Assembly (NCBI GenBank): GCA_000002445.1
Contig: CH464491.1
Location: 1,344,001 to 1,408,000 of the forward strand
Length of the DNA: 64,000 nucleotides
Origin: Trypanosoma brucei
Taxonomy: Eukaryota
Reading direction: 5' to 3'
Below the pieces are notes generated by a model. It was not told the origin of the DNA. It made no database searches and worked only from the letters and a program-made list of their open reading frames with translations. Each line of letters starts with the position of its first letter. Positions within the stretch are counted from its first letter, which is position 1. The position numbers and the translations under genes are program-made. This document shows, one piece after another, positions 1-18,749 of the stretch.

Positions 1-1036
1 TAAATTAATCGGCGTGAGAAATGTCGTGGCTGCCAATGGGGCTCCATTGGTTTAAGAAGAAAAAAGAAAACACGGAGCGTCAGCTTCACAGAGCACTGTA
101 AACAAACGCCTTAACCACCACCGGATCCCATGTTACGCTGCATCCATGCATTCTCAAGTGCTGGATGCGTTTGCGTTTGTATTTGTATGTGTGCGCTTCT
201 CCTTGAAACAGTAAATATTTTACGCATTACATTTGACATTACGCATATTCCCTTTTCATATTCATTGAAAAAAGTGATGACAATATCTTTTATGCAAATA
301 ATAATGAAATTCCACAACTATCGCTACCGCTTCAGTATTTTTCTTTCTCGTAACTGTTTCAACCTATTTTGTCATTGTATCCAAAAATATACATCACACG
401 ATTCAGTACCACATCTTACAACATTTAATAGCATCTTCCTGCTTCCGGTTGCCGTTGTTCCCATTCACATTAATTTTATTCACAAACACTTACAAGCACC
501 TTAACTTCTCTGTTGAAACATTCCCAATACAAAATGTTGTTTCCTTTTCATAAAAATAAAAATTATCAAGGGAAAACATAATAAGGGGTTAAAGTTATGA
601 AATCAACTATTAATATATGATATAAACGATGGCTCAGTGTTTCCATCAACACGCGTATTCCTGCGACAAATGCTTTCCATATGTAATGTTAATCATCCTG
701 AGCTTAATAATGGCAAAAAAAATAAATAAAATTAATCAATTCTGGCACAATGGTACGCACTCATTAGTTGTTTATGCTGATTGCACCTCAACTTTGATTC
801 GGAGTGCACAACTCCATTGGCGTCAGGTTGGGCTGAAAGGACATTTACGACAACTTTTCCTTTCCGTATATTCCGTAACCTCTGTTTTATCATTATTATT
901 CGTTATTCGTCACTTCTCTTGCCTCGTGCGCAGCTGGTGGAGGTGTGGCACCATTCAGCTCCGCAAAACGTGCAACAGTTAATGCCTTAACAATATTAAC
1001 GTCAAATTTGACGAGGTATTGTTTGACATCATTTTT

Positions 1037-3340
1037 CTAAAACACTTCAACATGCCTGTGGTTTTCATCATCTGCTTTACCATCTGTGAGATCACATCGC
1101 TGCTTGACTCTCATTGGAGTGGCGTCAGGGTGCTGAACATAAATCATTTCCCATCGATACTTCCCCATAACTGCTTTCCAATATTCATCACTTGGATTAG
1201 TGGTTGGATTTAAAAGTTTCTTCAGCATGCCAAGGAATGTTCCTGTCTTCGTATCATGCGATTCAGCAGTTGTGTACTGCAACATCACTATTGTCTTTTG
1301 TTTTCTCTGTTGTTTTTTATCCTCAGCAATTGCATCAGGGTCAACAACAAAGAAGGCATCCAAAACAGGGAAGTTAGGAAGCGCCTAGTATGCCTGAAAG
1401 AGACTTGGGGAACGTGTTATCATGCCACAACCGTCTGTAAAATCGGCAGCGTTGCCAAAGTTCAGGTATCTCTTCTGTACATGCCTCAAGACAGTGATAT
1501 TCTGCGCAACTTCCTGTTCCTCTACTCCCCTTTCGGGAAGTGGCTTGGTCATTTCGGTGATCGTACTCAACACTTTGGGAAATCCAAGTGCTTTTATAGC
1601 ATTGTACTCAAATAAAGCTGGAATTATCTCACGGGTAGGAATAAGCCCCGCCAACTGAGCTAAATTTTGAGCGGTTATTTCAGTTTCTCAATTATTCTCT
1701 TCTTTATGGATTCAGAGTGAGGTACGCATATGTATATCTCACCATTGTTTCTCCCACAGGCACGAACAATCTTCACGAGTTTGTGAGACGCGTCACTTTC
1801 CTTCCATTCGCCTTTGTTACCCACCACGCCAATATAGAGTTCACGTCGCTCATGGGATTTGATGGAATTTATTTCTTTGTCTATGTCGACCTCACGCGTG
1901 ACATACTTTGCTTCATCAAACACATAACGAAGTGAAGGTCCGACAAACTCCACACGGCTCTCATGCATCTCCCACTTTTCCCTCAACCCGACAGGTGTGG
2001 CTCCAGGATACAGCATGGGTCCAATACGTGAGAAGAAAGCCCGCATTTCAGTCATTTCCCAGCAGTTAACAAAGATACGTGTACATCTTTCCCTTTGCTG
2101 GAACCAGCTGTCAAAATTTCTCAAATTGGGTGAACTGATCAAAATGCTTCCCCATTTTGGAGCCACATCTGCCGGTGGCTGCTCGCCTTTGTTGACGAAG
2201 TCATAAATAACATAACCACGTGTATTAGATGATATAACCTTCATAAACGTTATAGCCGCTTCTTTACTGTACTCCCTAACTCTGCCAACGCCACCACCAC
2301 CAGATTTCTCAAATATATATGCGGCTACACCACGGAAGTACGCAACAACAGGCAACTCTTCCGCATCATAATGCAGTAAGTTGTAGAGTATGAAAGAACC
2401 CAAATTCTGAGATTTACCAATCCCAGGATTACCAATGGCAACGTATGATCGTGGAAAATAAAGACATCCCGGTAAAGCACGCTGTGTACGCCATAATTCA
2501 ACTCCACTCCTTACAACTTTCCATACGCGGAGCTCTTCTCTACGGGTGAATATTCTTTTGTTACTTCCGTCGGTAAACTTGGCTTATTATCACCCCATTT
2601 GAGATGTTAGAACCATTGCTTCAACTTCTTCCCTGCGTTCTGGTTTCTTCTCAACAGCTTCCTCAATTTCAGGGACAACATTAAGTTCTTCATCCTTCCA
2701 CATTACATTGCCACCACGCGTTCCATCAACAAACTCCATCCCGAGCAGTTGAGTTCCATTGTCAATTTCAATATGACTCCATTTCGCATTATAAACAGAG
2801 TCGTAAACTCCTGGAAGGTCAGCACCGTCAGCTAGTTAAATATATCGTTCCCCCGCCTTCCTGGCAATGCACCGTACCGTGTCCAACCTTGATGTCGCTG
2901 CGGAGCCAACTTGTTTCCTCATTTGGGCAGTTGCCTTCTCGCCCCACTGCCGCAGGGAGTAAATTCCATTACCGTTTAGATAGTTTATCCAACCTTGTAT
3001 TTCAGGCAACTGCTCACATATCCTTTATCGCTTAAACTGGAGGAGATTCTCTATGTCTTCAAGTAACTCGGCATCCCTAGTGTACCTTCCTGGGTTGGTA
3101 ACACACAAACTCATTGCTACATTCTTCATGTTGTTCGTGTTCAGAAAGAATTGCATCAGAAATTCGTGCAGGCTCATTTTAGCCAACGCCGCATAGTCTT
3201 CCAGAAGCACATCCTCAACCCTACTTTCCATCGTCCAGTTGGTGTCCCCTTCATTTCTCCACCACTTCTTTCTTTTTTTTCCTTGTACGGTCCCTTGGTC
3301 GTCCTTCCGAATTCACCCCACTTACGTTTCGTTCATACAT
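1037..3340 (-). pseudogene. Retrotransposon hot spot (RHS) protein pseudogene, broken into at least four frames
   Basis: Consecutive minus-strand ORF pieces in different frames (3231-3025, 2507-2325, 2403-1675, 1654-1385, 1363-1037) together span about 750 codons. The frame of the 2403-1675 piece continues upstream through a Walker A P-loop GNPGIGKS at about 2411-2433, which is typical of RHS proteins. The N-terminal piece (...NWTMESRVEDVLLE...MSLHEFLM...NPGRYTRDAELLEDI) resembles the conserved RHS N-terminus. An upstream out-of-frame ATG at 3340 suggests the original start. Confidence 0.6.
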
Positions 3341-4148
3341 GAAAAAGAGGTATCCGACACTGGCGGTTCAGGTTATCCATTGTGCTTTTCCACTAAATTA
3401 CACAGGATAAGATAGGGTGATGGTACATATTTGCTGAAGTGTAGTGATATCCATGCGCACACCCCGCGCTATCTTTGCAGGGGGTGCATCATATTCGGGC
3501 TTCGCCGCTCAGTGCAGGCACTTGGTGCCGTGGCCAGTTTTTGGTTGACCCGAAAATGGTTGTTGATGCAGCGCCGCATTAAAGTTTCTCCTTTGCTATG
3601 TGGCTGGATGGTGCGGCATCAGGAAAGCGTGCGGGCACGAGCGCCAGCACCAATGAGTTACGCAAGTCAGGTTACGCGCACTGGCTTATTTACCCCTAGC
3701 ATAAAAGTGTGGCGTGACAGAGTTACTAGTGAAAGCGACGATTTGCACCATATCTTGTAAATAGGCGATGGCCTGCGTATCTCAGAGGTGTGAAATGACT
3801 TCTATTCATGGATGTGCTGGTGGCCGCAAGCGTTGAAGCAACCTACTTCTACAGCTCTCATTCTTGTCCTACTCAAAAGACAGGACACCATCCGCTCATC
3901 GTCGAAGGCGTGGTGGAGTACGTCGCTTCCCTCGATCGTTTGTTCTTCGGTGGTGCCAGGGTCCAGTACCCCGTATCATCGGGGGAAGCCAAGAGCTACC
4001 AGTGTTACTCTCTTTTGGAACACTGCTTTGCTTAGACTACGGCATCGTACAGCACAGGGATCAGCAGCGTCTTGCTGGGACACCGTTTTTCGTTTGTCGG
4101 TCCCTGGGCACGTGCCAGCGTGCCATCAGCAGTATCATCCGCACTAAG

Positions 4149-4187
4149 ATGCTGCTGTCCGGTGATGTGGAAGAGAATCCCGGCCCA
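4149..4187 (+). other. 2A-like StopGo (ribosome-skipping) peptide MLLSGDVEENPGP at the start of the retroelement ORF
   Basis: Direct translation atg ctg ctg tcc ggt gat gtg gaa gag aat ccc ggc cca. The D(V/I)ExNPGP consensus is complete. The preceding residues (SSIIRTK) match my recollection of the 2A sequence reported for T. brucei TSR1/ingi elements. Confidence 0.85.
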
Positions 4188-7100
4188 TCATTGCGCGGGG
4201 TGCAGTGGAACTCCGCCGGGCTATCTCAAGGAAAGAGATTAGCACTCCACAAAACCCTTGTTGATGAGCGGATCGCCTTTTGTCTGTTGAGCGAGACAAG
4301 GATGAAACCTGGAGAGGCGGCTTGCTTTAGCGTTGCTGGCTACCAACATTACGGAATAGCTCGTAACTGCAAAGGAGGTCGTGTATCAATACTAGTGAGG
4401 GCGGACCTGCCAGTCGAGACCGGTATGGCCGTTGTTGGTCGCATTGAACAAGTGCATGCAACAATTCACCTTGCACGTGGAGCAGCGCTGACTGTCACGT
4501 CGGCATACATCCCACCAAAACACACCTTCACGGCAACTGACCTAGATACGCTTCTGACGACTGACGGTGCCCAGATCATCGGTGCAGACGCTAACGCACA
4601 CGCGTTGGCATGGGATCGCGCGAGCCCACCAAATACCAAGGGTGAAACCCTCACACAGTGGTGCATTGACAACCAGTTTCTGGTCTGCAACACTGGTGAG
4701 TGCACCAGGTACGCGCGCCACCAAGGGAAGTCCACCCCTGATGTGACACTGTCAAGGAATTGCACAGTGTACACGTGGACATCGCTGTATTCTCCCGATA
4801 GCGATCACCATCACATATTTTTCGACGTTATGGTTGGAGACGACACAGATGCACTGAGTTGCCCGCGGCTTCGAAAGCCCATGTGCGCATGGCTAAAAGC
4901 TGACTGGAGGAATTTCCGTCTCAAGGTTGACGAGTTCTGCAGGAAAATTGGTAGAGAGAAGAACGTCAACACCCTGGAACAGAAATTGAGCTCCGCCATC
5001 CGCATTGCGATGAAGGTCTCCGTCCCCCGTGGCTGCAGAGCAACGCCACCACATTGGACACCTGAGCTCGCGAAACTCGATGAAGAGATCACTGGATGCG
5101 GACCCTCCCACCGAAGGGAAAAGTTGGTAGCCACGCGTAAGCAGATCCTGGACCGTACCACAAAGAAGAGATGGAGCACACTATGCTCCAGACTTGCGGT
5201 GTCAGACCGCTGCAGTTGGCACATTGTCAAGAAGGTATATGCGCCACGACCACTAACCACACAGGCTGTACTTGTAGATAACGCGGCCATCACGGACTAC
5301 CGTCGAGCTGAGAGGTTCAATAAACTGTACTCGTCCCGCGCAAGAAGGCACCCCGACTCACACCCACCGGCACCAATAAAGACGATAGCGAGTGAGTTCA
5401 GTCCAATCACGATGGCTGAACTACGGAGATCGATCAAACTGCTACCGTGTGGATCCGCAGCCGGACCTGATTGCTTATACAACGAGGCGCTACAACATCT
5501 CGGTATAACAGCGCTGAATGTTGTTCTGAGGCTATTCAATGAGAGCCTACGAACGGGAGTCGTGCCACCTGCATGGAAGACTGGTGTTATCATCCCCATC
5601 CTGAAGGCCGGAAAAAAGGAGGAGGACCTCGATTCTTACAGGCCTGTGACGCCCACGAGCTGTCTCTGCAAAGTCATGGAACGCATAATTGCCGCAAGGT
5701 TTAGAGACACTGTTGAGTCCCAGCTGACGCCGCAGAAATCAGGCTTTCGCCCCGGATGCTCAACGCTCGAACAGCTGCTGCACGTCCGCGCTGCCCTCTG
5801 CCGTCCCACGCACCAATCACGTACGGGTGTTGTATTCGTCGACTACGAGAAGGCATTCGTTACTGTAGACCACGACAAAATTGCGAGGGAAATGCACAGA
5901 ATGAAGGTATCACCCCACATTGTGAAGTGGTGCGTATCATTTCTGAGTAACCGAACTGGCAGAGTGAGATTCAAGGAGAAGCTTTCCAGAAGCAGAACAT
6001 TTGAGCGAAGAGTGCCACAGGGAACTGCCCTTGGCCCAATCATGTTCATTATTGTCATGAACTCGTTGAGCCAGCGCCTTGCAGAAGTGCCGTTACTGCA
6101 GCACGGATTCTTTGCAGACGACCTAACGCTACTTGCGAGCCACACAGAGAGGGATGTCATCAACCACACACTACAATGCGGCCTAAACGTGGTGTTACAG
6201 TTGTCAAAAGACTACTTCATGTCTGTCAACGTAGCGAAAACAAAGTGCACACTCTTCGGGTGTATAGAGCGCCACCCCCTTACATTACAACTGGACGGCG
6301 AAAGAATAGGAGCTGACAGAACACCGAAGCTTTTAGGAGTAACATTCCAGTGTCTGCAAGGGATGGCAACACATGCGGCCGAAACGAGACGCAAGATGGA
6401 CTTCAGACTACTGCAGATAGCAGCCATCTCAGCTTCTACATGGGTACCAAGACGACAAGTGCTGAGAACTTTTTATCTAGCGCTCGTACAGGCACACACC
6501 ATGTATGGCATTGAGGTATGGTACTGGGACGCTTCGGAACGAAGTCGCGACCTCCTTGCATCAGCACAACACAAAGCCAGTCGCATCATAGCCGGCATAC
6601 CGCATGGGACGCGCAAAGAGGACTCTCTGCTGGAAGCAAACCTCCTGCCACTCAAGACGACCACTCTTGTGCGCAGCATGAAATTCATGCTGATGTGTGA
6701 GTCACGAGGCGGATGTTTGCGGCGCAGTGCTGAGGAAGTATACCACAGCAAACACCCAGTCAGAGTCTTACATTCCCGCATCATGCGGTCTTATCCCCAC
6801 CTCCGCATTGAGCCACGCGAGCACCCACTAGAGACATCGACGCTCCGCCACAGCTGCCGACCGCTATTTCACACGCAGATAAAGCCTGTGTGCGCTGATG
6901 ACCCTGACGATGTCAAAAGGGAGGCTTCCGAAAAGTGGATTGAACGGCATTTTGTACGGAGGGGGAAGGAGCTACCGCGGCGAGAGCACTACGAATTGTG
7001 GACTGATGGATCCGTGTCCCTCGGTGAGAAGTCCGGAGCAGCTGCCCTGCTCTATAGAAACAACACGCTGATTTGCGCACCCAAAACTGGAGCAGGGGAA

Positions 7101-7223
7101 CTCTCATGCAGTTACAGAGCGGAATGCGTAGCATTAGAGATAGGACTGCAACGGCTGCTGAAATGGCTTCCGGCATACAGAAGCACACCGAGCAGGTTGT
7201 CCATCTTCTCTGACTCGCTGTAA
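4149..7223 (+). CDS. Retroelement polyprotein segment 1: 2A peptide, AP endonuclease-like domain, reverse transcriptase, N-terminal part of RNase H; ends at an in-frame TAA
   Basis: Frame 0 is open from 3864 (TTG in the ORF track). The first in-frame ATG is at 4149, directly before the 2A peptide. RT motifs include FADD (6111-6122). TDGS of RNase H lies near 7000-7020. A TAA at 7221-7223 is followed in the same frame by the rest of RNase H. Confidence 0.8.
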   Translation: MLLSGDVEENPGPSLRGVQWNSAGLSQGKRLALHKTLVDERIAFCLLSETRMKPGEAACFSVAGYQHYGIARNCKGGRVSILVRADLPVETGMAVVGRIEQVHATIHLARGAALTVTSAYIPPKHTFTATDLDTLLTTDGAQIIGADANAHALAWDRASPPNTKGETLTQWCIDNQFLVCNTGECTRYARHQGKSTPDVTLSRNCTVYTWTSLYSPDSDHHHIFFDVMVGDDTDALSCPRLRKPMCAWLKADWRNFRLKVDEFCRKIGREKNVNTLEQKLSSAIRIAMKVSVPRGCRATPPHWTPELAKLDEEITGCGPSHRREKLVATRKQILDRTTKKRWSTLCSRLAVSDRCSWHIVKKVYAPRPLTTQAVLVDNAAITDYRRAERFNKLYSSRARRHPDSHPPAPIKTIASEFSPITMAELRRSIKLLPCGSAAGPDCLYNEALQHLGITALNVVLRLFNESLRTGVVPPAWKTGVIIPILKAGKKEEDLDSYRPVTPTSCLCKVMERIIAARFRDTVESQLTPQKSGFRPGCSTLEQLLHVRAALCRPTHQSRTGVVFVDYEKAFVTVDHDKIAREMHRMKVSPHIVKWCVSFLSNRTGRVRFKEKLSRSRTFERRVPQGTALGPIMFIIVMNSLSQRLAEVPLLQHGFFADDLTLLASHTERDVINHTLQCGLNVVLQLSKDYFMSVNVAKTKCTLFGCIERHPLTLQLDGERIGADRTPKLLGVTFQCLQGMATHAAETRRKMDFRLLQIAAISASTWVPRRQVLRTFYLALVQAHTMYGIEVWYWDASERSRDLLASAQHKASRIIAGIPHGTRKEDSLLEANLLPLKTTTLVRSMKFMLMCESRGGCLRRSAEEVYHSKHPVRVLHSRIMRSYPHLRIEPREHPLETSTLRHSCRPLFHTQIKPVCADDPDDVKREASEKWIERHFVRRGKELPRREHYELWTDGSVSLGEKSGAAALLYRNNTLICAPKTGAGELSCSYRAECVALEIGLQRLLKWLPAYRSTPSRLSIFSDSL

Positions 7224-7679
7224 ATGTTAACAGCACTGCAGACAGGCCCCCTAGCCGTAACGGACCCAATTCTGAGACGACTATGGAGGCTTCTGCTTCA
7301 AGTTCAGAGAAGGAAGGTGCGTATCCGACTGCAATTTGTGTTTGGCCATTGTGGCGTGAAACCGAATGAGGTTTGTGACGAAATGGCCAAAAAGGCCGCA
7401 GATTTACCACAGTTGCGAGACACATGGATCCCCGACATCATTGCTTATGCGAAGCGAGTGCTTAGGTCGGAAGAAGTCCATGAGAACACTCATAGGTTTG
7501 GTATCACGGGCAACCACTTTCCAACAAAACATAGGGAAGAACTGACGAGGGAAGAAGAAACGGCACTGGCACGCTTTCGGGTTGGGTCTTCAAGACACTA
7601 TGGATGGATGTTGCGAAAGATCAACCCGAGTGTAGTGTACCCTCACAGTGCCGATGGTGTAACCCGCAACATGCAGTGA
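7224..7679 (+). CDS. Retroelement polyprotein segment 2: C-terminal part of the RNase H domain (same frame as segment 1, beyond the in-frame stop)
   Basis: Translation contains VRIRLQFVFGHCGVKPNEVCDEMAKKAADLPQ, an RNase H-type signature. The frame is identical to 3864-7223 (both start positions are divisible by 3). Confidence 0.6.
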   Translation: MLTALQTGPLAVTDPILRRLWRLLLQVQRRKVRIRLQFVFGHCGVKPNEVCDEMAKKAADLPQLRDTWIPDIIAYAKRVLRSEEVHENTHRFGITGNHFPTKHREELTREEETALARFRVGSSRHYGWMLRKINPSVVYPHSADGVTRNMQ

Positions 7680-8916
7680 TAGGACCAACAATACAAACAC
7701 AAACAGCCTACCTGTTGCGACACGCACTCTTCAGAGAACCTCCGAACCGACCAAATGTACGGAGTGTGATGCCACATACCAATGCCGCTCGAGTGCTGTA
7801 ACGCACATGGTAAACAAACATGGCTTTGTGCGAGCTGATGCCCTCCGGAGGATCAAATACGGCGATGCAACACCCGCAGTGGATATCCCCCCGGAGCCCC
7901 CTCCAGTGGTGGCGATCGTTCCTCTACCATCGAGCACACGAGTCCCGATGAGACCGCAGGTGTTTCATTGTACCCTCTGTGCCTCCAAATTCGCAGTGCA
8001 AGGCCGACTATTACACCACCTTAGAACAATACATGGCATAGGCAGCGGTAGTTACCGCGTGAAAAGGGAGCGAGAGAACGAGGACTCAGTGCAAGGAGAT
8101 GGTAGAGCCCCAGCAGCGCCAGCCTCTCAGGATACACGGAAGCTGCCGTTTCAATGTGACCTGTGCGAGGCGAGCTTCGGTACACGCTCTTCCCTGTCAC
8201 TACACAAGAAATTCAAACATAAGAGCATAGTGACGGAGGACGGTACCGTGGTGGTGGTGCAATTCCCTCGTAAGCGTGCCCGTGAGGGAAACGTTGACGT
8301 CCCGGGGAAGGGCGAGGTGCAGTGCGGTGTGTGCCAAAAAGTGCTCAGTTGCAGGGACTCCCTCATCCGACACTGTAAGGCTTTCCACAAAGGTGAGGGA
8401 GTCGAGCTTAAATGCAGCAAAAGCACAAAATTGTGTTCCACGGATTCCCCGCATACAAATGCATCCATGTTGGTGTGCCCGACATGCGGAAGGCAGTGTG
8501 CTAGCAAAACTGGCCTCACCCTACATCAAAAGAAGATGTACGGTATGAAGGTAGAGCGCGCTGTTACCAGCCAACGCGGCGACTGCGAAGAAACGTCGCT
8601 GTACCTGATGAGCTGGCCCGGTTTGAAGGAGTTACGTGTCAGGTTTGCGGTAGAAGGTGTATGTGTGCAGGATGTATGCTTCTCCAAAAGGCTGGCGCAG
8701 TTTCTCATTGCGGTTGAACGGAGCCGGCCGCAGGTGAAGTCCTCACCTAAGGTAACAGTCATACAACCCACTCTCCCTTCTGCAACTTTCCCCCTTATTG
8801 CCGAGTGTGGAGCTTGCAGGAAAGGCACTGGACGCAGGAATAGTCCAGAAACCCTCAGAGACAGAGGGGGTATGCAGTCAACAAGCAACAGAAACAGAAA
8901 GAGGGGGAGAGAATAA
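7663..8916 (+). CDS. Retroelement polyprotein segment 3: C2H2 zinc-finger domain (five fingers), in a different frame from segment 2
   Basis: This frame is open from 7663 and overlaps the end of the RNase H frame (7679), implying a frameshift lesion at about 7636-7680. Fingers: CTECDATYQCRSSAVTHMVNKH (7756-7821, upstream of the ORF-track start at 7807), HCTLCASKFAVQGRLLHHLRTIH, FQCDLCEASFGTRSSLSLHKKFKH, CGVCQKVLSCRDSLIRHCKAFH, CPTCGRQCASKTGLTLHQKKMYG. Confidence 0.65.
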   Translation, partial: PATCSDRTNNTNTNSLPVATRTLQRTSEPTKCTECDATYQCRSSAVTHMVNKHGFVRADALRRIKYGDATPAVDIPPEPPPVVAIVPLPSSTRVPMRPQVFHCTLCASKFAVQGRLLHHLRTIHGIGSGSYRVKRERENEDSVQGDGRAPAAPASQDTRKLPFQCDLCEASFGTRSSLSLHKKFKHKSIVTEDGTVVVVQFPRKRAREGNVDVPGKGEVQCGVCQKVLSCRDSLIRHCKAFHKGEGVELKCSKSTKLCSTDSPHTNASMLVCPTCGRQCASKTGLTLHQKKMYGMKVERAVTSQRGDCEETSLYLMSWPGLKELRVRFAVEGVCVQDVCFSKRLAQFLIAVERSRPQVKSSPKVTVIQPTLPSATFPLIAECGACRKGTGRRNSPETLRDRGGMQSTSNRNRKRGRE

Positions 8917-9920
8917 TAAACGAATAACAAAAATCAAAACAAAAGGATTGCTAATTGACATCTTTTGGAGAGTCTGGGGTGGGGGGCTTCTCGCCCCATC
9001 TGCTGTATTCCGTTCAAATGCGGAGCTACAAAAAAAAATTATAGAGGGTGTGTTAGGATGAATAAAAAAGGGAGACTCTGCCACAGTCGCCAGACCGATA
9101 GCATCTCAGGGCTCTACGGTGATGGCTGACGGCCGTGCCAGTGGGGGGAAACTCTCCCGAAGGCACGAAGAAAATTTCAAAAAAAAAACTTGCTGTTTCG
9201 ACCAAATGAACTTTGCAGCGACATCCAGAGTGGTGACCGTTGATGCAATCACTGCCCGGAGCTGACATTGCCGGCTACCCATCTCGTGGCCTCCGGGTGC
9301 GGTGCATATGGTGATAGGACTCGGTCGATCGCTTGATTTTTAGTTGGTACGGGGTCGGCTCCGCTGCATGGTGCTGCGCGTATAGAGTTGCTCACGGTGG
9401 AGCCGTTGTTCCTCTTGCGTTGCTGATGGTGACATTTTTCGACCTTTATATTGATGGGTGAAACGATAAGACGAAAAAAAGGTGTTTGTAGCGATTGTAG
9501 TGGTGGCGCTTCTTTTTCCCCCCTATTTTTAACGGGTGTCTAATACATAGTCACTGTTTATGCTACGCTGCACTACTCTCTTCGTGCGGGCGTGAGGCAA
9601 CGTTAAGTTTCTGCTACATATGTATCGCATAGACTGATTAACAAGCTTATCATAACCTATTTATCCCTCCGTTAGAGACTTTCCTATAACGAGGCGTGAT
9701 GTTTCTATATTCTTCATGGCTCTGCAATCACCCTGTGCTATTTTTGCCCCAGATTTGCTAATGCTCACTTCTGGGAAGTATATTCCCCTCGTGGACGACT
9801 CAAATATTTCAAGAGCTGAGGGACACGGTGCTTCAACCCCTGTAACCCTCTTTACCGCTGCGCATATTTATTAATTTAGGATTTCGAGGAGCCCTTGATG
9901 TGGTATGGTATGTGTCCTTG

Positions 9921-9962
9921 ATGTGACTGTTATTCTCATTACATCTTTATTTTCCATGTGTG
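9921..9962 (+). promoter_or_regulatory. Polypyrimidine tract and downstream AG; candidate trans-splicing signal for the first gene of the plus-strand unit
   Basis: tgtccttgatgtgactgttattctcattacatctttattttccatgtgtg, followed by gcAAGaat, about 25 nt upstream of the ATG at 9986. This is the typical kinetoplastid splice-acceptor arrangement. Confidence 0.45.
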
Positions 9963-9985
9963 TCGCAAGAATATAGGTAAAGAAA

Positions 9986-11323
9986 ATGTTTCGGTGTTAT
10001 GGACGAAAACTGAGTCCCCAACTACGTGACATTATACACCGACTGGACTTTATTGAAAAACAGATTATTGATCTCAAGGCTTTTCGAGATGCGGTTCAGG
10101 CGACGTTGCCAAGCGTTGCGACCGCTGCTGATGCTCTAGCTAGGAAGCGCCAAGAAACAGCAAACCAAATCAATGTAGTGGCGAAGGATCCTTTGACGTC
10201 CGAGGAGTTCGTAGAACTGAATCAATATTATGCCGTTCAAATGGTTCAAACGTTAGCACTTCGTAATATGGTGCACATAAGGACGCATGAGGATCTATAT
10301 TCACACGCCCGATTAATTCACAGAGAGTATCTTGTACGTGTTGCACAGCGGGCCCGCGCACTTAGTCATGCATGTGTGGGGTTGTCTCAGATGCCTTCTA
10401 TTCAGGAACTACGCAGGTGGTATGAGTGGAGTTTCCATGATGTGAGGAGTACGAAAGCTCCAGTCGATGCTGAGGGCGCTCTGAAATTTGATACACTAGT
10501 TAGACGTCTTTTTTTGAGGCACTACAACGTGAGCGCACTTCTTAGCGAGGGCATGCACGAACTTGGGGAGCGCCAAAGGTGGGATGAACACTCTCACTCC
10601 GATGACCTCCTTACCGAAACATTTGACGAGCTTCAACGGTTCTTCGATGAATTTTGTATGGGTCGTGTGAGGTTGCGTTTTCTCGTGGGAAATTATGTTC
10701 AGTTGTCGACGCAAATTTTGCGGGTGGAACCACGGTACTCTGAGAAGCTTACAGCTCCCATGTATTTTGACCACGACCCCGAGAGCTTTGTTGGACAAAT
10801 ATGCCAACGATGCTCATTAATAAAACTAGTAGAGTGCGCGATACGTTCTGCAAGGGCGTCTTACAGTGAGTTGGGTATTGAGCTCCGTGTAGCTGTAGAT
10901 CCTGATGCAACGCTATCTGGGATTCCATACATTACGTATGATATTTTATCTGCGTTAATTGACGATGCCATTCAGGCTAATGTTCTACGGCAGGAAAAGT
11001 ATGGAATACCATTCACGCCAGTTGTGATCACTATTGCTCAACGCAATGCCAATGAGCAGTTTAGTGTCCGTGTTTCCGATACTGCCGGCGGGATGCCCCT
11101 TCATCTTGCCCGACACGTGTTGAAATATTGGTTTGCGTACAAGTGCACGGATGACATGTTGAAACTCGCTAAAACATGGACACATAGTCCCATACGTCTA
11201 CCATATGCTTACTGTGCAGCCAAGGTTTTAGGGGGGGATATATCAGTGGTTTCCATTGATGGTTATGGCACCGACCGTTTTCTTCATCTTCCGTCCGACG
11301 GGATAGAGAGGGTTCGTTTTTAG
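9986..11323 (+). CDS. Mitochondrial-type protein kinase of the PDK/BCKDK (GHKL ATPase) family
   Basis: ATG checked at 9986. The C-terminal HATPase-like boxes are VRVSDTAGGMP (11066-11098, G1 DxGxG) and DGYGTDRF (11258-11281, G2 GxGxG). RLRFLVGNYVQL resembles the PDK RIGIRMLINQH motif. The N-terminal helical domain resembles the BCDHK/PDK dimerisation domain. Confidence 0.55.
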   Translation: MFRCYGRKLSPQLRDIIHRLDFIEKQIIDLKAFRDAVQATLPSVATAADALARKRQETANQINVVAKDPLTSEEFVELNQYYAVQMVQTLALRNMVHIRTHEDLYSHARLIHREYLVRVAQRARALSHACVGLSQMPSIQELRRWYEWSFHDVRSTKAPVDAEGALKFDTLVRRLFLRHYNVSALLSEGMHELGERQRWDEHSHSDDLLTETFDELQRFFDEFCMGRVRLRFLVGNYVQLSTQILRVEPRYSEKLTAPMYFDHDPESFVGQICQRCSLIKLVECAIRSARASYSELGIELRVAVDPDATLSGIPYITYDILSALIDDAIQANVLRQEKYGIPFTPVVITIAQRNANEQFSVRVSDTAGGMPLHLARHVLKYWFAYKCTDDMLKLAKTWTHSPIRLPYAYCAAKVLGGDISVVSIDGYGTDRFLHLPSDGIERVRF

Positions 11324-13788
11324 CAGTCAGCTTTTGCTAATCTTAATTTGTTTAACTGAGATACTTACGTTTACACCTAAGCGGGAGAGCGAACTGACAC
11401 ACAGTTTACTACTTTTTTCTGAACTTGTTAACTATCGCTCGATTTTCGTTAGCATTCACCATTTGTTTTACTCGTATTTTAACGTGGAATCCTCTAATGA
11501 AATTACGGAAACGAACGACTTTATCTTTTCCTGCTTATGGACATTTACCACCTTACTCTTCCTCTCTATTTTTTGCTTTGCGTTCCTCTGTTCGTGGAAG
11601 GTGGTTACTTGATGCTTTACCCTCATAATTATATCTGTACGACTACAAAATTTTTGTTCACCATTAGCAAGCATAGCCGTTGCCTGTTTCTACAAAAAAA
11701 AAACAACAAGCGACAGGGTAAGTGAATGTATAGATTAAGCGGGATATTTATGTGAAAGTCTACTAGAGGAAAGCCGTTCAAAAGTCCAACTTCCCCCCAC
11801 ATAGGACATTTTAGTTGTGCTGAGAGGTGTACCTGCTAACTCGTGCGCTCGTGCGGGACTACAACGTGATCAAGGCAGTTGTTGAGAAGTATAAGTAAGT
11901 TCTTACTGTTTTCTTTCCCTGAGATTAATAAAGACAAGGGTTCTCGGCGGAGGGGTATCGAAAAAAGTGATCATGTAGAGGGATATATGCGCTTGAAAAC
12001 TGCCGTTAGCGTTTCTTCTGGAGCGAAGATCATGTTTGTGGAAGTCACTGGTGATGCCGTGCTGTACCCACGACGGGCTGTATTATCTTACATTGCTTCT
12101 TGCGAGCCCCACGGTATGCAGTTTGATATTTGCCCGCCCTTACTCTCCGAGAAACACACATGTGCCCTGGATGTTGTTGGGTTGCTCCGGGGCGTAATAT
12201 GCATATCGTCTTTAACCCTGGGAATGCGCAGTGTGGCGGGCTGCATGAGAGTTAGCAAACCACACCTTACTCGCCAGCAAAGCTATGTTTTCTTTCCTTT
12301 TTGTTTTATTCCCACTTCTTCAGTGCCGTTTGTTGCTGGTCGATATTCCGCCGTAATTAAAGAGAAAATGATTCGTATGCACGGTAAACACTACTTTTGT
12401 ATAAAAGTGCCAGTGTTGCGCCTTACAGCTTTCCAAGGCGTGCAGGGCGGGGGGGGCAGGGTGTTATTCGAGGTCACTTGAGTGGCTGCGGCGCGGTGAG
12501 TTGTGTTCTTTTCAGATCTAAAAAGGCCGCGGTAATGATGTGTACGATGGATTCGTTTTTTAAGGCGATGACGAGCTGGTAAAGTGAGAAAAAGTTGTGC
12601 GGTGCCGACGTTGGTGCATTCATCCCAATTATAGGAAGAGCCTTCTATCTCTCCATCACATATTTTGGTTGTAGCAACGATTTTTGTTGGATGTATTTGG
12701 TGACTTTAGGCATATTCTTCTTTGCGGATATGGATATTGAATGAGGGCATATAGTTGTATTCCATCACGGTGATCTGCGACAGGTTTTAAATAAATTAGC
12801 TTTAGCCCCGTTGTTAACATCCGTTTTGAGACCCGTGTACGACATTTGGGTGACACCTTCATGATTCTATGCTCGAATAACTGCCTTTTCATTGCTAGAG
12901 ACTTGATTACTGGATAATTATACAAACATTTGAAGGGAAGGGCGCGTTACAGAGGTAAACAAACACACAACGCAAATTTTCGATTGCTGACCTTTTTTGC
13001 TCTCAGAGACGCCGAGGGAAAGGAAGCGAAAAGCCTTCTTCTGTGAAGACGTGAGCGCAAGGCTCACAGCAAAGAGGGAGGTTGCAGTGATACGAATCGA
13101 CGGTAAACGTGCTTGTGTGTTTTTCTGTGGCGATGTTTTTAAATATTACTGTTTATGAACCACTGACGTCAGTAACACAGATTTCACTACTTATATGGTC
13201 TCCTCTTTTTATTTCTTTAAGTTTGTTGTAGAGAATGTGAAACATATGAAGGTAATACAACTGTTCTAACTTCCCCCCTGGGTGACAGTATAGTTCAACG
13301 AAGAAGACGGAAGGCCATGACCTGTGGTGCTGTACAGGTGGGATACTTCGCACAAAGGGCGCATAACGGAAAATATTGCGTATGTTAAACGCGATTTTAT
13401 TTTGTTTCTTTTGAGTTCTTCAGACGTTTGTCTGTACAGGTGGAAAGGGGGAAAAGACTCGTATTTTAATTTTACCGCAAAAAAAAAAAAGAAATTAAGT
13501 TTTTGTTAACTAGTGTGTGACTCACATAAGGGAGCACACTTAGATGAGCGGATCACATGAGGTGGGATAAAGGTGCAGGCGTGTGTCCATGATGCTCCTT
13601 TCTTCTTCTTTTTTTTTTTTTGAGAGAGTTTTGTGGTTGTCATCTGTCTTTTATTCTGTTGGCCTTATGCTCTTTCTTGGTTGAGTGAGGTAGTAAAGGG
13701 TATGGTGGGGTATTGTCGTGAAGAGGAGCTACGGTTGCGTTTTGTGCATGATGGATTGCAATGGAAACCGTAATGTTACCTGTGTTTA

Positions 13789-13812
13789 GTGTGTGTGTGT
13801 GTGTATGTGTGG
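13789..13812. repeat. (GT)n microsatellite
   Basis: gtgtgtgtgtgtgtgtatgtgtgg, read directly from the sequence. Confidence 0.9.
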
Positions 13813-14890
13813 TTGTGTGCCGTCATTGACAGGAGATCGCGTCTCTTGTGAGAGTCTATATTACAGTTCGGCGCAACGGTTTTGCCGCGTTAACGCTGCT
13901 GGAATCTAATCAGAGATGTTGGGATGCCTTGAAGTGTATGTTTGCTGCTAAGGTTGTTCGCAGTGTTGTGCCTCTATTGTGTTGCGTAAGTAAAGGGTCG
14001 ACTGCCCTTGTTGCCGGTGTGGGAAGTAATGAGTCCGTGCATGCTTTCCCTTGTTCGCGTTTGTGGCGTATGGGTTGTGTGTAAATCGTTATTCTTTTCT
14101 GTTAATCATCGTGAGGAGCATGTTGATATAATTTTTGGTCTTTTTCGTTCATTTGTGACAGGGGGTCAGCTCCAGGTGGTGCAAAAGTACCAGAATGAGT
14201 GGTGTAATGCCGAGGCGGATGATTCCACTGCGGCACCATACGATGCTGTCTCAAAAGGTTGAAGCGTCCTTTCACAGTGTGTTTGGGGGGGGGGTTCTGC
14301 TTTGTTGAAGTGAGCGCTGGTGGTGTTTTGATTGCAAGTGCTGAACAAATGGCAACATTACATGATTGCCCTTGAAGTGTCTGTATACACCCTGATGGGT
14401 GAGCGGAGCACATTTCTTTATGTTAGACGGCGGTTGTGGTGCTGAAATTTATCATAGCTGCCTGTGAGTGCCCATCTCGACCATCCAAGGATACTTAGAT
14501 ATTGTTCACTGTTTCCATATTCTTTGTTATTTTTTAAAGGCGAGGTTAAGTAAAAGTAGATTGCTGCATATTGCATTTGTGCGTAGGCCAGTACCGGCGG
14601 TTGATCTCACGAAAATTACTTTTATTTATTTTTGTGGTTAACAATAACCCCTCTCCTGCCTGGTTATTCCCAACGAGTGTGTATGGATCTGATGTTCTCT
14701 TCCAACCACAGTGATTGGACCCACTGCTGTATTGGTCGGCGCAGAATTTGCCGAAGCTTTTGTTTTAATATCTACCTTGCGGTAAGAGGAATCTTGCGAA
14801 TAACGTGTAAGCAAAAGTGTCAAAAACCGAACGCTTCGATGTCCCCCTCCAAATTCGAAGTTTGAGAATTTACCTGGATGCTGGTGCCTA

Positions 14891-14930
14891 ACCTACCCTA
14901 TTTCCCCCTTTTTTCCCCTGCGATTGTGTC
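14891..14930 (+). promoter_or_regulatory. Polypyrimidine tract upstream of the ANTH/CALM gene (candidate splice-acceptor signal)
   Basis: ctaacctaccctatttcccccttttttcccctgcgattgtgtctcgtgtAG, followed about 50 nt later by the ATG at 14987. Confidence 0.45.
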
Positions 14931-14986
14931 TCGTGTAGTCAGGTTGCCGAAAGGCTCAAAGTTAATTACATCGCAACATCGGTTCG

Positions 14987-16465
14987 ATGAACTCTAAAGA
15001 CACGAATGAGTTGAAAAGGGGTGCTGGGTACCTAAAAGAAAAAGCAATAATTGGGCTTACGCGTGTGACGGGAAATGAACTGGATCGTGCCATATACAAA
15101 GTTACAAGTCACAAGCTTAAGGCCCCTAAGGAGAAGCACATGCAGCGGGTTTTGGCCGCGACACGCGGATATAGTAGCCAGAAAACTCACAAAGGTCGCA
15201 ACACATGCGAGTACATTGTTTCTGAGTTTGAGAAGCGTCTTCATACACACAACTGGATCGTTGTATTGAAAACGTTGGTGACGTTTCATCGCTTAATGAA
15301 GGATGGTTCGGACGAGGTGAATAATTGTATACAGCAGAACCGTAATATTTTTTGCTTTCGCAACATAAAGGACCTTTCAGAGAGTTCCGAAGGGGCCGTA
15401 CAAAGTGTGTTTATCCGCCAGTATATGTATTACCTCGAGGAGCGTTCCTCTTCTCAACGGAAGCTAGGTGCTTCTAAACGTATGGAAAACAGTGAATTTG
15501 GCGTTTTTCTTCGGTCCCTCGATGTTGACACTCTTGGCCCCGTCTTTGAGTCGCTGTTGGTGCAACTTTCTGCACTTGTCGAGGTACAGTACAAGGAGGC
15601 TATAGTTGACAACTTTTGCACGATGGAGGCTTTTCAAAGGCTGGTGAACGATGGGAAGCTACTCTATCAGATACTTTCAGACCGGGCAATCTTTATACTT
15701 GACGGCTTTAGTGGGTTTACTCTTCAGCAGAAAAAGGATTGGGTAAGGCGGTATCGGGAATACACTGTAGTGGGAGAGAGACTGCGCTTACTTTTCGAAT
15801 CAATCGCAAACTCAAAAAGGATGTTTGACGAACCTCCTCCACCCCTAAAGGCGCTTCCCGGGTCTTTATTAGAGAGCCTGGAGAGAGAAGTCCGTTTGAG
15901 TAGCATAGCTCACGAGGACATAACCGAGACGCTCGAGAGTCTGGGTATAACTGCCGATGAAAAGACCCCACTGAAGGCGACAACTTCAGATGGCACAATG
16001 GCAATATACTCACCAGTGGCGACTGAGAAGGCGCTTGACACCACAGAGACAGGAGCACCTCCGGTCACTGAGCCCAAAAAAGAGTCTGGTTTCTCAATTG
16101 ATGATCTGTTTGTACCTCCTCCTGTCACCGACTCTCATCAACAAACATCTTATAACCCGTCCACAATACCTCAAGGTACCCAGATGGAGGGGCCCCTTAT
16201 TCAAACTGAGGCGAACCCAAACATGACCTACACTTTCCCAACCGGGGTTCCTGTTGGTCAAAACTTCTTCGGCCAACAACCGACAGGGAATTCATTGACG
16301 TGGGAGGCCCCCAGCCCTGCACCGGGTTCGATGCAACCGCAGTCTGCGGCGGGCATCGTTCCCTCGTGGAGTGATTCGTCAGCATCATGGGGTCGAGGTA
16401 ATTGCGGTAGCAATACTGTGGATCCGTTTAAGGATCTTTACGCGAGCCAGAAGGGAGGCCAGTAG
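14987..16465 (+). CDS. ANTH-domain clathrin assembly protein (CALM/AP180-like)
   Basis: ATG checked at 14987. The N-terminal ...LTRVTGNELDRAIYKVTSHKLKAPKEKHMQRVL (15098-15139) matches the ANTH signature (K/A)TxH plus a basic PIP2-binding patch. The C-terminal half is low-complexity and Pro/Gln/Ser-rich with DLF/DPF-like motifs (DDLFVPPP, VDPFKDL), typical of clathrin adaptors. Confidence 0.7.
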   Translation: MNSKDTNELKRGAGYLKEKAIIGLTRVTGNELDRAIYKVTSHKLKAPKEKHMQRVLAATRGYSSQKTHKGRNTCEYIVSEFEKRLHTHNWIVVLKTLVTFHRLMKDGSDEVNNCIQQNRNIFCFRNIKDLSESSEGAVQSVFIRQYMYYLEERSSSQRKLGASKRMENSEFGVFLRSLDVDTLGPVFESLLVQLSALVEVQYKEAIVDNFCTMEAFQRLVNDGKLLYQILSDRAIFILDGFSGFTLQQKKDWVRRYREYTVVGERLRLLFESIANSKRMFDEPPPPLKALPGSLLESLEREVRLSSIAHEDITETLESLGITADEKTPLKATTSDGTMAIYSPVATEKALDTTETGAPPVTEPKKESGFSIDDLFVPPPVTDSHQQTSYNPSTIPQGTQMEGPLIQTEANPNMTYTFPTGVPVGQNFFGQQPTGNSLTWEAPSPAPGSMQPQSAAGIVPSWSDSSASWGRGNCGSNTVDPFKDLYASQKGGQ

Positions 16466-16566
16466 TCGAGTGGCAGGATGAAAACGTTTTCCAATTATTC
16501 AGGTCGTGTGTTGGTGCAGTGGTTGGGTCTGGGTAAAATACTGTGTCCTTATCACTGAGGTAGTGA

Positions 16567-16590
16567 ATATATATATATATATATATATAT
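16567..16590. repeat. (AT)n microsatellite
   Basis: atatatatatatatatatatatat, read directly from the sequence. Confidence 0.9.
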
Positions 16591-18006
16591 GTTGATGTGT
16601 GCCTGATAGGCGAGATCACCACCTATTGGCCCGTGCGGCGACTGCTTTCCTTCTTTTGTGCGGTACTAGGAGACTGAGGGTTGTAAGGGACTTCCCCTAT
16701 TCCTATGTTGCCCTTTTGGGACGGCCTAGCGAGGGCGTGACAGTAGTGGTGCTACTTGAGGTGGGAAAGATTTTGGAACCTCTGTATTTGCGTTTGGTAG
16801 AGGTGGGTTGGCCGCACATCGGGGGTGGACGAAGAAAAATCAGTTGTGTTTTTTTGATTACTGTTTTTGTTCTCGGGGATGCTTATAGCGGTGCACGGTT
16901 TTCGAATCTGGTGCCCGGGCTACGAAAGGGTGTTTTGAGGAGGGGGAGGATCAAAAGTAACGCCCTTTTCGTAATTCTGATGCTTATTACCCTCCATTTT
17001 ATTGATGCTCGTGTTTCGAGGTTGTTTAATGGTGGCATTTCCCTTGTAGGGAAGCTTCTCTTTGTTGTTTGTGGCCCTTTTTTGTTCCTTAAGGAAAACC
17101 CGGACCGCACCCGTACTTGCATGAATCAGGTTTTTACGCAATAGGTCGGCGGTATTTGGGGTCCTCTACCGCGACCCGAAACCGACACCCAAACAAGTTA
17201 TCATTTCTCTTTTTTTTTTTTTTGCGGGACTTTATTCTTGTGGTATAGAATGGCTTGGATTCCCCCCTTACTGACTGTACTCCCAACACGCTCGGCCCTT
17301 CCGTACGGCCGCATTTTCGTGTAGGCGACGCAACCGGCGGGTGGTGGTTGTTTTTATGCTTTGCGTGGGGCTTGGTGACCTGTGGCACATGTTCGGTGAC
17401 TTCAGGTCAAGAATTATTTTTTATGTGCCCGCTTTCAGTTGATTCTATTCGTACCACCACTTTCCCCCTTCTATTCATAACTTAGTAGACGGTATTTGTG
17501 AAAATGTGCTAGGGAATTGTCGCACTTCAGTGCGTTGTGGGCGTTTTTGAAGATACGGAGTTCTTGTTAATTCCCACGTTGACATACTTTATTTGCTTTC
17601 TTACTTGTGCTTCAGATTCCTAAGCTCCTCAATATTTTTGAGTGTTACATTTTTTTAATGATGTTGTTGTACTACGTAGGGCATCCATGGAAGAGCAAAG
17701 TAAAGCATATATCATTTGTGATGGGTGAAGGAAGGGCGTTTTGACAAGTGCAATGCATGCCCGTGGTCGCTGCAGTTTTTTGCCGTTGTATGACCGCTCA
17801 CAAAACTCCCATCCCTCGAGTGAGTATGCACGTTGCTCAATCGTAGTGTGGTGCGTGTGGTGCCCGTTATTTTCGTACTTTTCAAACATTTTCATGCACC
17901 GAGTATATGCTGCAGTTTCCGCTCATATTTCATTTTACCCCCGATTTTTTATTCTTTGACTTCCTCCCTCCAGTTGTTCAACGATTAGAAGCGTTCCGAC
18001 AAGGTT

Positions 18007-18531
18007 ATGAGGGCTCTCCGCCTAACTACATTTATCACTGCCACTAGTGCCGTTCGCTTACAATCAGGAGGAAATTATGGTCGGCAACCTCCACGCGAAT
18101 ATCGCCAACGACCCCACCAACCTCAGCATCGTTTTGGTGGCCCCCGTGACGGACGGCCGCAGAGGGGTTCCCCGCCTCCTCAGGGGTCTTCCTATGGCGG
18201 GTCTTGCAATAGGTTGAGCGAACCGCAGTTGGTGGCCAAACTGTTAGAGCACTTTCCTGTGGGTAAGACATCTATCCCAGTAAACAAGTGGGCGCCTTTT
18301 GTGCCCGAGGACATTCAAGAAGCGTTGGTACCCTTTGGGGGGTTGGCTCATTTTGCAGCGTCACAGACTAATTTCTTCATTGTTCGCAAGGAAAACGGGT
18401 TGACAGTTGTAACGCTTTCTACGATGGCCTCCACGTTGTGTGTAGAAAGGGAGAAAAGTATCAAAAAACGTGAAGAGAAGGCAGCAGCTTACGCTGCTCG
18501 CCGCCGCGACCAACCGCGGCGTTCACACTAG
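18007..18531 (+). CDS. Hypothetical protein (174 aa) with an N-terminus resembling a mitochondrial presequence
   Basis: ATG checked at 18007. MRALRLTTFITATSAVRLQ is Arg/Leu/Thr-rich with no acidic residues. It is followed by a Pro/Gly/Arg/Gln-rich low-complexity stretch and a globular C-terminal part. No motif recognised. Confidence 0.4.
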   Translation: MRALRLTTFITATSAVRLQSGGNYGRQPPREYRQRPHQPQHRFGGPRDGRPQRGSPPPQGSSYGGSCNRLSEPQLVAKLLEHFPVGKTSIPVNKWAPFVPEDIQEALVPFGGLAHFAASQTNFFIVRKENGLTVVTLSTMASTLCVEREKSIKKREEKAAAYAARRRDQPRRSH

Positions 18532-18705: not shown

Positions 18706-18749
18706 ATTCGGTATGTTTGATTTCTGTTGCAAGGGGTAGGGATTAGGCC

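What the first reader, a model, noticed from the sequence alone, without database searches (positions are those of the whole stretch)
1037..9985. RHS pseudogene and ingi element occupy an apparent divergent strand-switch region at the head of a 54 kb plus-strand gene array
The only minus-strand coding sequence in the window (the RHS pseudogene, reading leftwards from about 3340) and the first plus-strand housekeeping gene (ATG at 9986) point away from each other. The 6.6 kb between them is filled by the retroelement. In trypanosomatids, divergent strand-switch regions are RNA polymerase II transcription start regions. From what I recall of T. brucei, RHS and ingi/RIME sequences accumulate there. 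The element is co-oriented with the downstream unit, so read-through from the element, or initiation around or within it, could contribute to transcription of the 24 downstream genes.
Basis: inference. Interest (0 to 1): 0.5.

Follow-up and report, generated by a model that had tools for sequence, protein, structure and literature searches.

The report
Retroelement-filled head-to-tail transcription unit boundary
This is a known boundary between two same-direction gene arrays on Trypanosoma brucei chromosome 11, holding a dead RHS gene and a crippled ingi retroelement; published data already place a transcription start there, so it is ordinary.

Summary
The window is T. brucei TREU927 chromosome 11 (Tb927_11_01_v4:1,344,001-1,408,000). 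The observed parts are real, with corrected limits:
- An RHS6-type pseudogene lies on the minus strand at 899-3369. It has 7 in-frame stops and 1 frameshift.
- An ingi element lies on the plus strand at 3950-9188.
- PDK (Tb11.02.2390 / Tb927.11.4780), ATG at 9986, heads the plus-strand array.

Tb11.02.2370 is a transcribed plus-strand gene whose transcript ends 283 nt left of window position 1. Kolev et al. 2010 (Table S14) list two plus-strand units, Tb11.02.2030->2370 and Tb11.02.2390->3720. They class the second start as "Internal". So this is a head-to-tail, non-divergent start region. Pol II initiation upstream of PDK is supported by published data.

The ingi lacks the first 25 nt of its Pr77 internal promoter, including the start site and part of the essential CGTG element. 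The same truncation is present in T. b. gambiense and T. b. equiperdum. Element-driven initiation is therefore unlikely.

PDK also heads its gene array in T. cruzi, T. theileri and L. donovani. Retroelement relics lie upstream of it in four Trypanosoma lineages. This is an ancestral unit head and synteny break that collects insertions. It is already known and of low interest.

The parts
1..898 (.). AT-rich intergenic DNA (GC 0.36) downstream of Tb11.02.2370. That gene is the last plus-strand gene of the upstream unit and lies off-window; its transcript ends 283 nt left of position 1.
   Evidence: No ORF in this stretch was tested for homology or domains (ORF list).
899..3369 (-). RHS6-type retrotransposon hot spot pseudogene. 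It is full length, with 7 in-frame stops and 1 frameshift near 1684.
   Evidence: Pfam RHSP 2e-48 and DUF7578. tblastn of RHS6a (AAL14357, P0185) aa 39-833 aligns to 3255->899. The upper limit 3369 is extrapolated from the 38 unaligned N-terminal residues.
3370..3949 (.). Unassigned 580-bp spacer between the RHS 5' end and the ingi 5' end, which point away from each other. GC is 0.50.
   Evidence: No Pfam hit on its 109-aa ORF. No match to the Pr77 profile. Conserved at 97% in T. b. gambiense and T. b. equiperdum.
3950..9188 (+). ingi non-LTR retrotransposon, 5239 bp. It is truncated by 25 nt at the 5' end. Its ORF is broken by stops at 7221-7223 and 7677-7679 and by a frameshift before 7807. 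It is co-oriented with the downstream genes.
   Evidence: Pfam Exo_endo_phos_2, RVT_1, RNase_H and zf-C2H2 in order. ORF frames. Limits.
3950..4001 (+). Partial Pr77 hallmark, covering profile positions 26-76 only. Missing are the start site, the CCACC motif and the first base of the CGTG downstream promoter element.
   Evidence: nhmmer with a profile built from Macias 2016 Additional file 1 gives E 2e-11 for HMM positions 26-76. Alignment to the ingi consensus shows the same truncation in three subspecies.
9179..9188 (+). A10 tail of the ingi. No target-site duplication was found.
9189..9985 (+). Unique 797-bp stretch upstream of the PDK ATG. It is moderately GT-rich and contains a pyrimidine tract around 9511-9530. 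It is the most likely place for the first splice acceptor, and it is the nearest unique DNA to the published start region.
   Evidence: Sequence and composition. The location of the start region here is inference.
9986..11323 (+). PDK, pyruvate dehydrogenase (lipoamide) kinase (EAN79441 = Tb11.02.2390 = Tb927.11.4780). It is the first gene of the plus-strand unit Tb11.02.2390->Tb11.02.3720.
   Evidence: Exact protein match. Pfam BCDHK_Adom3. Gene-ID assignment. Kolev Table S14.

Best explanation
The region is a head-to-tail (non-divergent, 'internal') boundary between two plus-strand polycistronic transcription units on T. brucei chromosome 11.

Layout. The upstream unit (Tb11.02.2030->2370) ends just left of the window. 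The downstream unit of about 130 genes (Tb11.02.2390->3720) starts at PDK. The roughly 10.3-kb gap between them holds two decayed passengers: an RHS6-type pseudogene on the minus strand and a 5'-truncated, ORF-broken ingi on the plus strand.

Initiation. Pol II initiates in a dispersed, chromatin-defined start region upstream of PDK. This is shown by published 5'-triphosphate RNA mapping. The ingi's own Pr77 promoter does not drive it, because that promoter has lost its start site and part of its essential CGTG element. This last step is inferred.

Origin. The site is an ancestral unit head and synteny break. PDK is the first gene of its array in T. cruzi, T. theileri and L. donovani, and what lies on the other side differs in every lineage. 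Such gene-free, open regions tolerate or attract retroelement and RHS insertions (inferred, and in line with the literature).
For: - Mapping to v4 coordinates, and the plus-strand neighbour Tb11.02.2370.
- Table S14 gives the units Tb11.02.2030->2370 '+ Divergent' and Tb11.02.2390->3720 '+ Internal'. The method is described.
- PDK equals Tb11.02.2390. This follows from the EAN order (EAN79441 to EAN79452 = Tb11.02.2500) and from CALM = Tb927.11.4800.
- The Pr77 truncation is shared by three subspecies. The CGTG element is essential for Pr77 activity in L1Tc.
- The RHS + ingi layout is colinear in T. b. gambiense and T. b. equiperdum.
- PDK is the first plus-strand gene in other species. In T. 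cruzi a DGF-1 gene sits 4 kb upstream on the minus strand. In T. theileri two GP63 genes sit upstream on the minus strand. In L. donovani PDK lies 3.3 kb from the start of the chromosome 24 record.
- Pr77-bearing or ingi-like relics lie upstream of PDK in T. congolense, T. cruzi and T. theileri.
- Published context: head-to-tail and non-divergent start regions are defined classes, and transposons near promoters have been reported.
Against: - No chromatin or nascent-RNA track could be viewed, so the start position within -282..9985 is unresolved.
- Table S14 calls its units 'putative'.
- Kolev et al. report that all start sites are intrinsically bidirectional. The RHS pseudogene may therefore be transcribed antisense, which gives the locus a divergent look.
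- A truncated Pr77 does not exclude initiation elsewhere in the ingi, or read-through from the upstream unit.
Confidence: 0.8

Rival explanations
1. This is a true divergent strand-switch region. A bidirectional start region lies between the RHS pseudogene (minus) and ingi/PDK (plus), and the RHS pseudogene acts as a one-gene minus-strand unit.
For: RHS (-) and ingi/PDK (+) diverge from the 3370-3949 spacer. Kolev et al. find antisense 5'-triphosphate reads at all start sites. In T. cruzi and T. theileri the same PDK head is a genuine divergent region.
Against: The next gene to the left, Tb11.02.2370, is on the plus strand and is transcribed. Kolev Table S14 lists single-gene divergent units at other loci but classes this start as 'Internal'. 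The RHS copy has 7 stops and a frameshift.
Confidence: 0.1
2. The ingi drives or feeds the downstream unit. Transcription starts at its Pr77 internal promoter, or reads through the element, and supplies the 24 or more downstream genes.
For: The element is co-oriented with the array and ends 797 bp before PDK. Pr77 is a Pol II promoter in L1Tc and has been proposed to drive adjacent polycistrons.
Against: Pr77 positions +1 to +25 are absent, and the CGTG element is reduced to GGTG, in all three subspecies. PDK heads its unit in species that have no co-oriented element. ingi transcripts are RNAi targets and ingi loci are H3.V-enriched. In SET27 mutants, starts shift upstream and promoter-proximal retroelement transcripts are derepressed. 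This implies that wild-type starts lie downstream of such elements (general, not specific to this locus).
Confidence: 0.07
3. There is no start here. The RHS and ingi are simply insertions inside one long plus-strand unit, and transcription runs through them from Tb11.02.2030 onward.
For: The genes on both sides are on the plus strand. No tRNA or other structured RNA gene that could force termination is present.
Against: Kolev Table S14 records a separate start at Tb11.02.2390. The same PDK head is a unit start in three other genera or species.
Confidence: 0.03

Closest known systems
Non-divergent / head-to-tail ('internal', sTSR/ndTSR) Pol II transcription start regions of T. brucei (Kolev 2010; Wedel 2017; Briggs 2018; Staneva 2022)
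   Same: There are plus-strand genes on both sides. A published start is assigned to the first gene, PDK. No tRNA lies nearby. Retroelement sequence lies close to the promoter, as Staneva 2022 describes.
   Different: Nothing differs in kind. This locus is one of the entries in Kolev Table S14. The start position within the gap was not resolved here.
Divergent strand-switch regions (dSSR/dTSR)
   Same: A minus-strand and a plus-strand coding sequence point away from each other. The orthologous PDK head is a genuine divergent region in T. cruzi and T. theileri.
   Different: In T. brucei the only minus-strand element is a dead RHS copy, and the neighbouring unit on the left is on the plus strand.
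ingi / L1Tc-clade non-LTR retrotransposons with the Pr77 internal promoter
   Same: The domain order (endonuclease, RT, RNase H, C2H2), the length near 5.2 kb, the poly(A) tail and Pr77 positions 26-76 all match.
   Different: The first 25 nt of Pr77 are missing. No target-site duplication was found. The ORF is broken.
RHS (retrotransposon hot spot) family, subfamily RHS6
   Same: It has the RHSP P-loop domain and is colinear over its full length with RHS6a, at 67-88% identity.
   Different: It is a pseudogene. The neighbouring ingi lies 580 bp outside the coding region and in the opposite orientation, not inside the gene (no element interrupts the alignment to RHS6a). It is chromosome-internal and solitary, not part of a subtelomeric cluster.
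Synteny-break and centromere-type retroelement-rich regions between gene clusters (Obado 2007)
   Same: It is a gap between gene clusters containing an ingi, at a break in synteny with Leishmania and T. cruzi.
   Different: There is no AT-rich repeat array, and the gap is only about 10 kb.

Membership tests
Divergent strand-switch region | Two protein-coding transcription units are transcribed away from each other | tested here: not met
   The left neighbour Tb11.02.2370 is on the plus strand, with a mapped transcript at 1342190-1343718. The unit Tb11.02.2030->2370 is '+'.
Divergent strand-switch region | Marks of Pol II initiation (H2A.Z, H4K10ac, 5'-triphosphate RNA) | not testable with these tools
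   Only the published summary is available. Kolev Table S14 lists a start before Tb11.02.2390 and classes it 'Internal'.
Head-to-tail / non-divergent start region | Same-strand genes lie on both sides of the gap | tested here: met
   Tb11.02.2370 (+) lies to the left and PDK (+) to the right.
Head-to-tail / non-divergent start region | Independent evidence that a new unit starts there | tested here: met
   Table S14 gives Tb11.02.2390->Tb11.02.3720, '+', 'Internal'. PDK also heads its unit in T. cruzi, T. theileri and L. donovani.
Head-to-tail / non-divergent start region | Termination marks (H3.V, H4.V, base J) at the end of the upstream unit | not testable with these tools
   No ChIP tracks are available.
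ingi (ingi/L1Tc clade) | AP-endonuclease, reverse transcriptase, RNase H and C2H2 domains in order, in about 5.2 kb | tested here: met
   Pfam hits. The span 3950-9188 is 5239 bp.
ingi (ingi/L1Tc clade) | Complete 77-79-nt Pr77 hallmark at the 5' end | tested here: not met
   Only profile positions 26-76 match (E 2e-11). The upstream 25 nt do not align to the consensus.
ingi (ingi/L1Tc clade) | Poly(A) tail and a flanking target-site duplication | tested here: inconclusive
   An A10 tail is present at 9179-9188. No direct repeat of 8 nt or more flanks the element.
Functional Pr77 promoter | Start site at +1, and the CGTG element at +25 to +28 | tested here: not met
   Positions +1 to +25 are absent. 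The copy reads GGTG where the consensus has CGTG, in all three subspecies. CGTG is essential in L1Tc.
RHS family | RHSP P-loop domain and colinearity with a named RHS protein | tested here: met
   PF07999 at 2e-48. RHS6a aa 39-833 aligns.
RHS family | Intact coding sequence | tested here: not met
   7 in-frame stops and 1 frameshift.
T. brucei centromere | Array of AT-rich repeats (147 bp on chromosome 11) beside the retroelements | tested here: not met
   TRF finds no such array anywhere in the window.

The most novel reading that the evidence does not exclude
The conserved head of the PDK unit may be a recurrent landing site for ingi/L1Tc-clade elements. Relics lie upstream of PDK in T. brucei, T. 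congolense, T. cruzi and T. theileri, in different positions and orientations. In T. brucei, retroelement-derived sequence (the ingi body or its 3' end, not Pr77) may have become part of the dispersed promoter of a unit of about 130 genes.
Probability: 0.08. Interest if true: 0.45.

Novelty: already known. Interest (0 to 1): 0.15.

Why it matters
It matters little beyond annotation. The locus is in the reference genome, its start site is in a published table, and the link between retroelements, RHS genes and unit boundaries is textbook for trypanosomatids.

Two modest points have some value:
- It gives a clear case where a lone antisense pseudogene imitates a strand switch in a sequence-only reading.
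- It shows that a unit head can stay fixed at the same gene (PDK) across Trypanosoma and Leishmania while everything on the other side is replaced (DGF-1, GP63, a chromosome end, or RHS + ingi + another unit).

Tried and rejected
1. Reaching the DNA left of the window through orthologous contigs. The T. b. gambiense and T. b. equiperdum loci end at window position 2335 or 53. The question was settled from Kolev's coordinate tables instead.
2. Using the T. cruzi upstream gene to find a T. brucei left neighbour. It turned out to be DGF-1, a T. cruzi-specific family, so the search was wasted.
3. Testing whether the ingi splits the RHS gene at its hot spot. Rejected: RHS6a aligns without interruption from aa 39 to 833.
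4. A first guess that the ingi 5' end lay at about 3360, and later at 3929. Rejected by the Pr77 profile, which places the start at 3950.
5. An eyeballed second Pr77-like motif at about 9255. Not supported by nhmmer, E > 10.
6. A search for a target-site duplication. None found.
7. GT-richness and G-runs as a promoter signature. The strongest GT-rich stretch is at 13.5-14.5 kb, but 16.5-17 kb is equally GT-rich, so the measure does not discriminate.
8. A centromere reading. There are no repeat arrays.
9. tRNA or other RNA genes as a cause of an internal start. None found.
10. Supplements of Staneva 2021 and 2022, Kim 2021 and Tiengwe 2012. None held locus-level data.
11. Siegel 2009 is not held in the library.
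Full report
**Identity of the window**

Eight plus-strand ORFs are exact matches to T. brucei brucei TREU927 proteins EAN79441-EAN79463 on a 5.26-Mb record. The ANTH-domain protein at 14987-16465 is TbCALM, Tb927.11.4800.

Kolev et al. 2010 (PMC2936537, Table S3) give Tb11.02.2500 an ORF at 1374248-1375501 and Tb11.02.2560 an ORF at 1385573-1387933. These match window ORFs 30248-31501 and 41573-43933 with one offset of 1,344,000. The window is therefore Tb927_11_01_v4:1,344,001-1,408,000, in chromosome orientation.

EAN accessions and old gene IDs both rise one step per gene. EAN79452 is Tb11.02.2500 and EAN79458 is Tb11.02.2560. It follows that PDK (EAN79441, 9986-11323) is Tb11.02.2390, which is Tb927.11.4780.

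**Check of the observation**

The minus-strand RHS pseudogene is real.
- Pfam RHSP scores 2e-48 on 1675-2403(-), and DUF7578 hits 3025-3231(-).
- A search of 1.8 billion representative proteins returned RHS6a (AAL14357) as the closest full-length relative.
- RHS6a residues 39-833 align to 3255->899, with 7 in-frame stops and a frameshift near 1684.
- The pseudogene therefore spans about 899-3369. It is full length and is not interrupted by the retroelement.

The plus-strand element is an ingi.
- It carries endonuclease, RT, RNase H and C2H2 domains in that order.
- I built a profile from the Pr77 alignment in Macias et al. 2016 (PMC4748587, Additional file 1). It matches only profile positions 26-76, at 3950-4001 (E 2e-11).
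- Direct alignment to the ingi consensus shows that the 25 nt upstream do not align to it.
- The tail is A10 at 9179-9188.
- The element is therefore 3950-9188 (5239 bp) and is 5'-truncated. No target-site duplication was found.
- Its ORF is broken by stops at 7221-7223 and 7677-7679 and by a frameshift before 7807.

The element does not fill the whole gap. 580 bp (3370-3949) and 797 bp (9189-9985) are not element sequence.

No other minus-strand ORF of 150 aa or more outside the ingi has a Pfam hit. The two antisense ORFs inside the ingi were not scanned.

**Is it a divergent strand-switch region?**

No. Table S3 of Kolev et al. lists Tb11.02.2370 on the plus strand, with its ORF at 1342241-1343059 and a mapped transcript at 1342190-1343718. 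The transcript ends 283 nt left of window position 1.

Tb11.02.2370 is a real gene. It is a Fam50 (BARP/GARP-related) surface protein with a T. congolense orthologue.

Table S14 lists Tb11.02.2030->Tb11.02.2370 as a plus-strand unit. It lists Tb11.02.2390->Tb11.02.3720 as the next plus-strand unit, with type 'Internal'.

In current terms the locus is a head-to-tail or non-divergent start region.

**Is it a Pol II start region?**

Yes, on published evidence. Table S14 was built from enrichment of 5'-triphosphate RNA reads at sites that also carry the start-associated histone marks.

I could not view tracks, so the start position within the gap is unresolved. No tRNA or Rfam family is present to explain the start.

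**Comparative evidence**

The RHS + ingi layout is colinear at 94-97% identity in T. b. gambiense DAL972 and T. b. equiperdum. It therefore predates the split of the subspecies.

PDK heads its plus-strand array elsewhere too:
- In T. cruzi a DGF-1 gene sits on the minus strand 4 kb upstream.
- In T. theileri two GP63 genes sit on the minus strand upstream.
- In L. donovani PDK is the first called gene, 3.3 kb from the start of the chromosome 24 record.

The unit head at PDK is therefore ancestral, and the other side is lineage-specific. In T. brucei another plus-strand unit has been joined on at that point.

Relics of the ingi/L1Tc clade lie upstream of PDK in other lineages:
- T. congolense has a near-complete Pr77 on the minus strand 3.1 kb upstream (E 5e-17).
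- T. cruzi has Pr77 positions 1-53 on the minus strand, between DGF-1 and PDK (E 8e-11).
- T. theileri has RT and zinc-finger remnants on the minus strand.

Only in T. brucei is the element co-oriented with PDK.

**Does the ingi contribute to transcription?**

That Pr77-bearing elements at strand-switch regions might drive adjacent polycistrons is a published suggestion.

For this copy it is unlikely to act through Pr77:
- Positions +1 to +25 are missing, including the start site and the CCACC motif.
- CGTG is reduced to GGTG.
- All three subspecies share these losses.
- CGTG at +25 to +28 is essential for Pr77 activity in L1Tc.

General context points the same way. ingi transcripts are RNAi targets and ingi loci are H3.V-enriched. 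Promoter-proximal retroelement transcripts are derepressed only when SET27 is lost and starts shift upstream.

Read-through from the upstream unit, or initiation elsewhere in the element, cannot be excluded with these tools.

**Rivals rejected**

A centromere-type region is excluded because there is no AT-rich repeat array. A second Pr77-like motif that I thought I saw at about 9255 is not supported statistically. GT-richness does not single out the region upstream of PDK.

**Verdict**

The anatomy is real, with corrected boundaries. The 'divergent strand-switch' label is wrong. The statement that a Pol II start lies at the head of the array is right, and it is already published. The element-driven mechanism is unlikely. 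The finding is ordinary and already known.

Noticed in passing
window 1-14500 compared with 14500-21000 (against L001, L002): Identity to T. b. gambiense and T. b. equiperdum is 94-98% across the whole boundary zone and the PDK-CALM intergenic stretch. Further downstream it is 98.4-100%, mostly 99% or more, including in intergenic DNA. The PDK coding sequence itself is 99.6% identical.
   Followed up: partly
window 2001-2500: The RHS P-loop segment is only 83% identical between TREU927 and T. b. equiperdum, while its flanks are 92-97% identical. This suggests gene conversion from another RHS copy in one lineage.
   Followed up: no
L001 1551-4797 (T. b. gambiense FN554974.1): The gambiense assembly carries a partial duplication of the ingi 5' half next to a 100-N gap. 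This is probably an assembly artefact.
   Followed up: no
window 11324-14986: This 3.7-kb stretch between PDK and CALM holds only a 184-200 aa hypothetical ORF. T. cruzi and T. theileri have a conserved 588-aa gene at this position, and a CutC gene after CALM. tblastn finds no relic of either in the first 22 kb of the window; the one marginal hit (E 0.01) lies outside this stretch. The stretch is GT-rich at 13.5-14.5 kb, with a (GT)15 run at 13789-13819 and a G10 run at 14285-14294.
   Followed up: partly
window 43900-47800: This is an AT-rich block (GC about 0.36) with low-complexity A/T repeats and two minus-strand ORFs without Pfam hits (45043-45702, 46579-47052). Kolev Table S3 maps an alternative 3' UTR of Tb11.02.2560 to 1390831 (window 46831), which covers most of the block.
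   Followed up: partly
window 4164-4187: The N-terminal part of the ingi ORF encodes DVEENPGP, a 2A-like self-cleaving peptide motif.
   Followed up: no
L005 73-459(+) and 3559-3945(-) (T. vivax): The GC-rich 10 kb upstream of T. vivax PDK contains an inverted repeat that encodes near-identical 128-aa ORFs. It has no recognisable genes or ingi homology.
   Followed up: no
off-window, Tb927_11_01_v4:1342241-1343059: The last gene of the upstream unit, Tb11.02.2370, belongs to the African-trypanosome Fam50 (BARP/GARP-related) surface protein family. It is therefore a lineage-specific surface gene sitting at the end of a unit.
   Followed up: partly
L003 7975-8027(-), L009 5184-5253(-): Pr77 hallmarks lie upstream of PDK in T. 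cruzi and T. congolense, oriented away from PDK. The T. cruzi copy has no ingi coding similarity next to it, so it is probably a short or degenerate element.
   Followed up: partly
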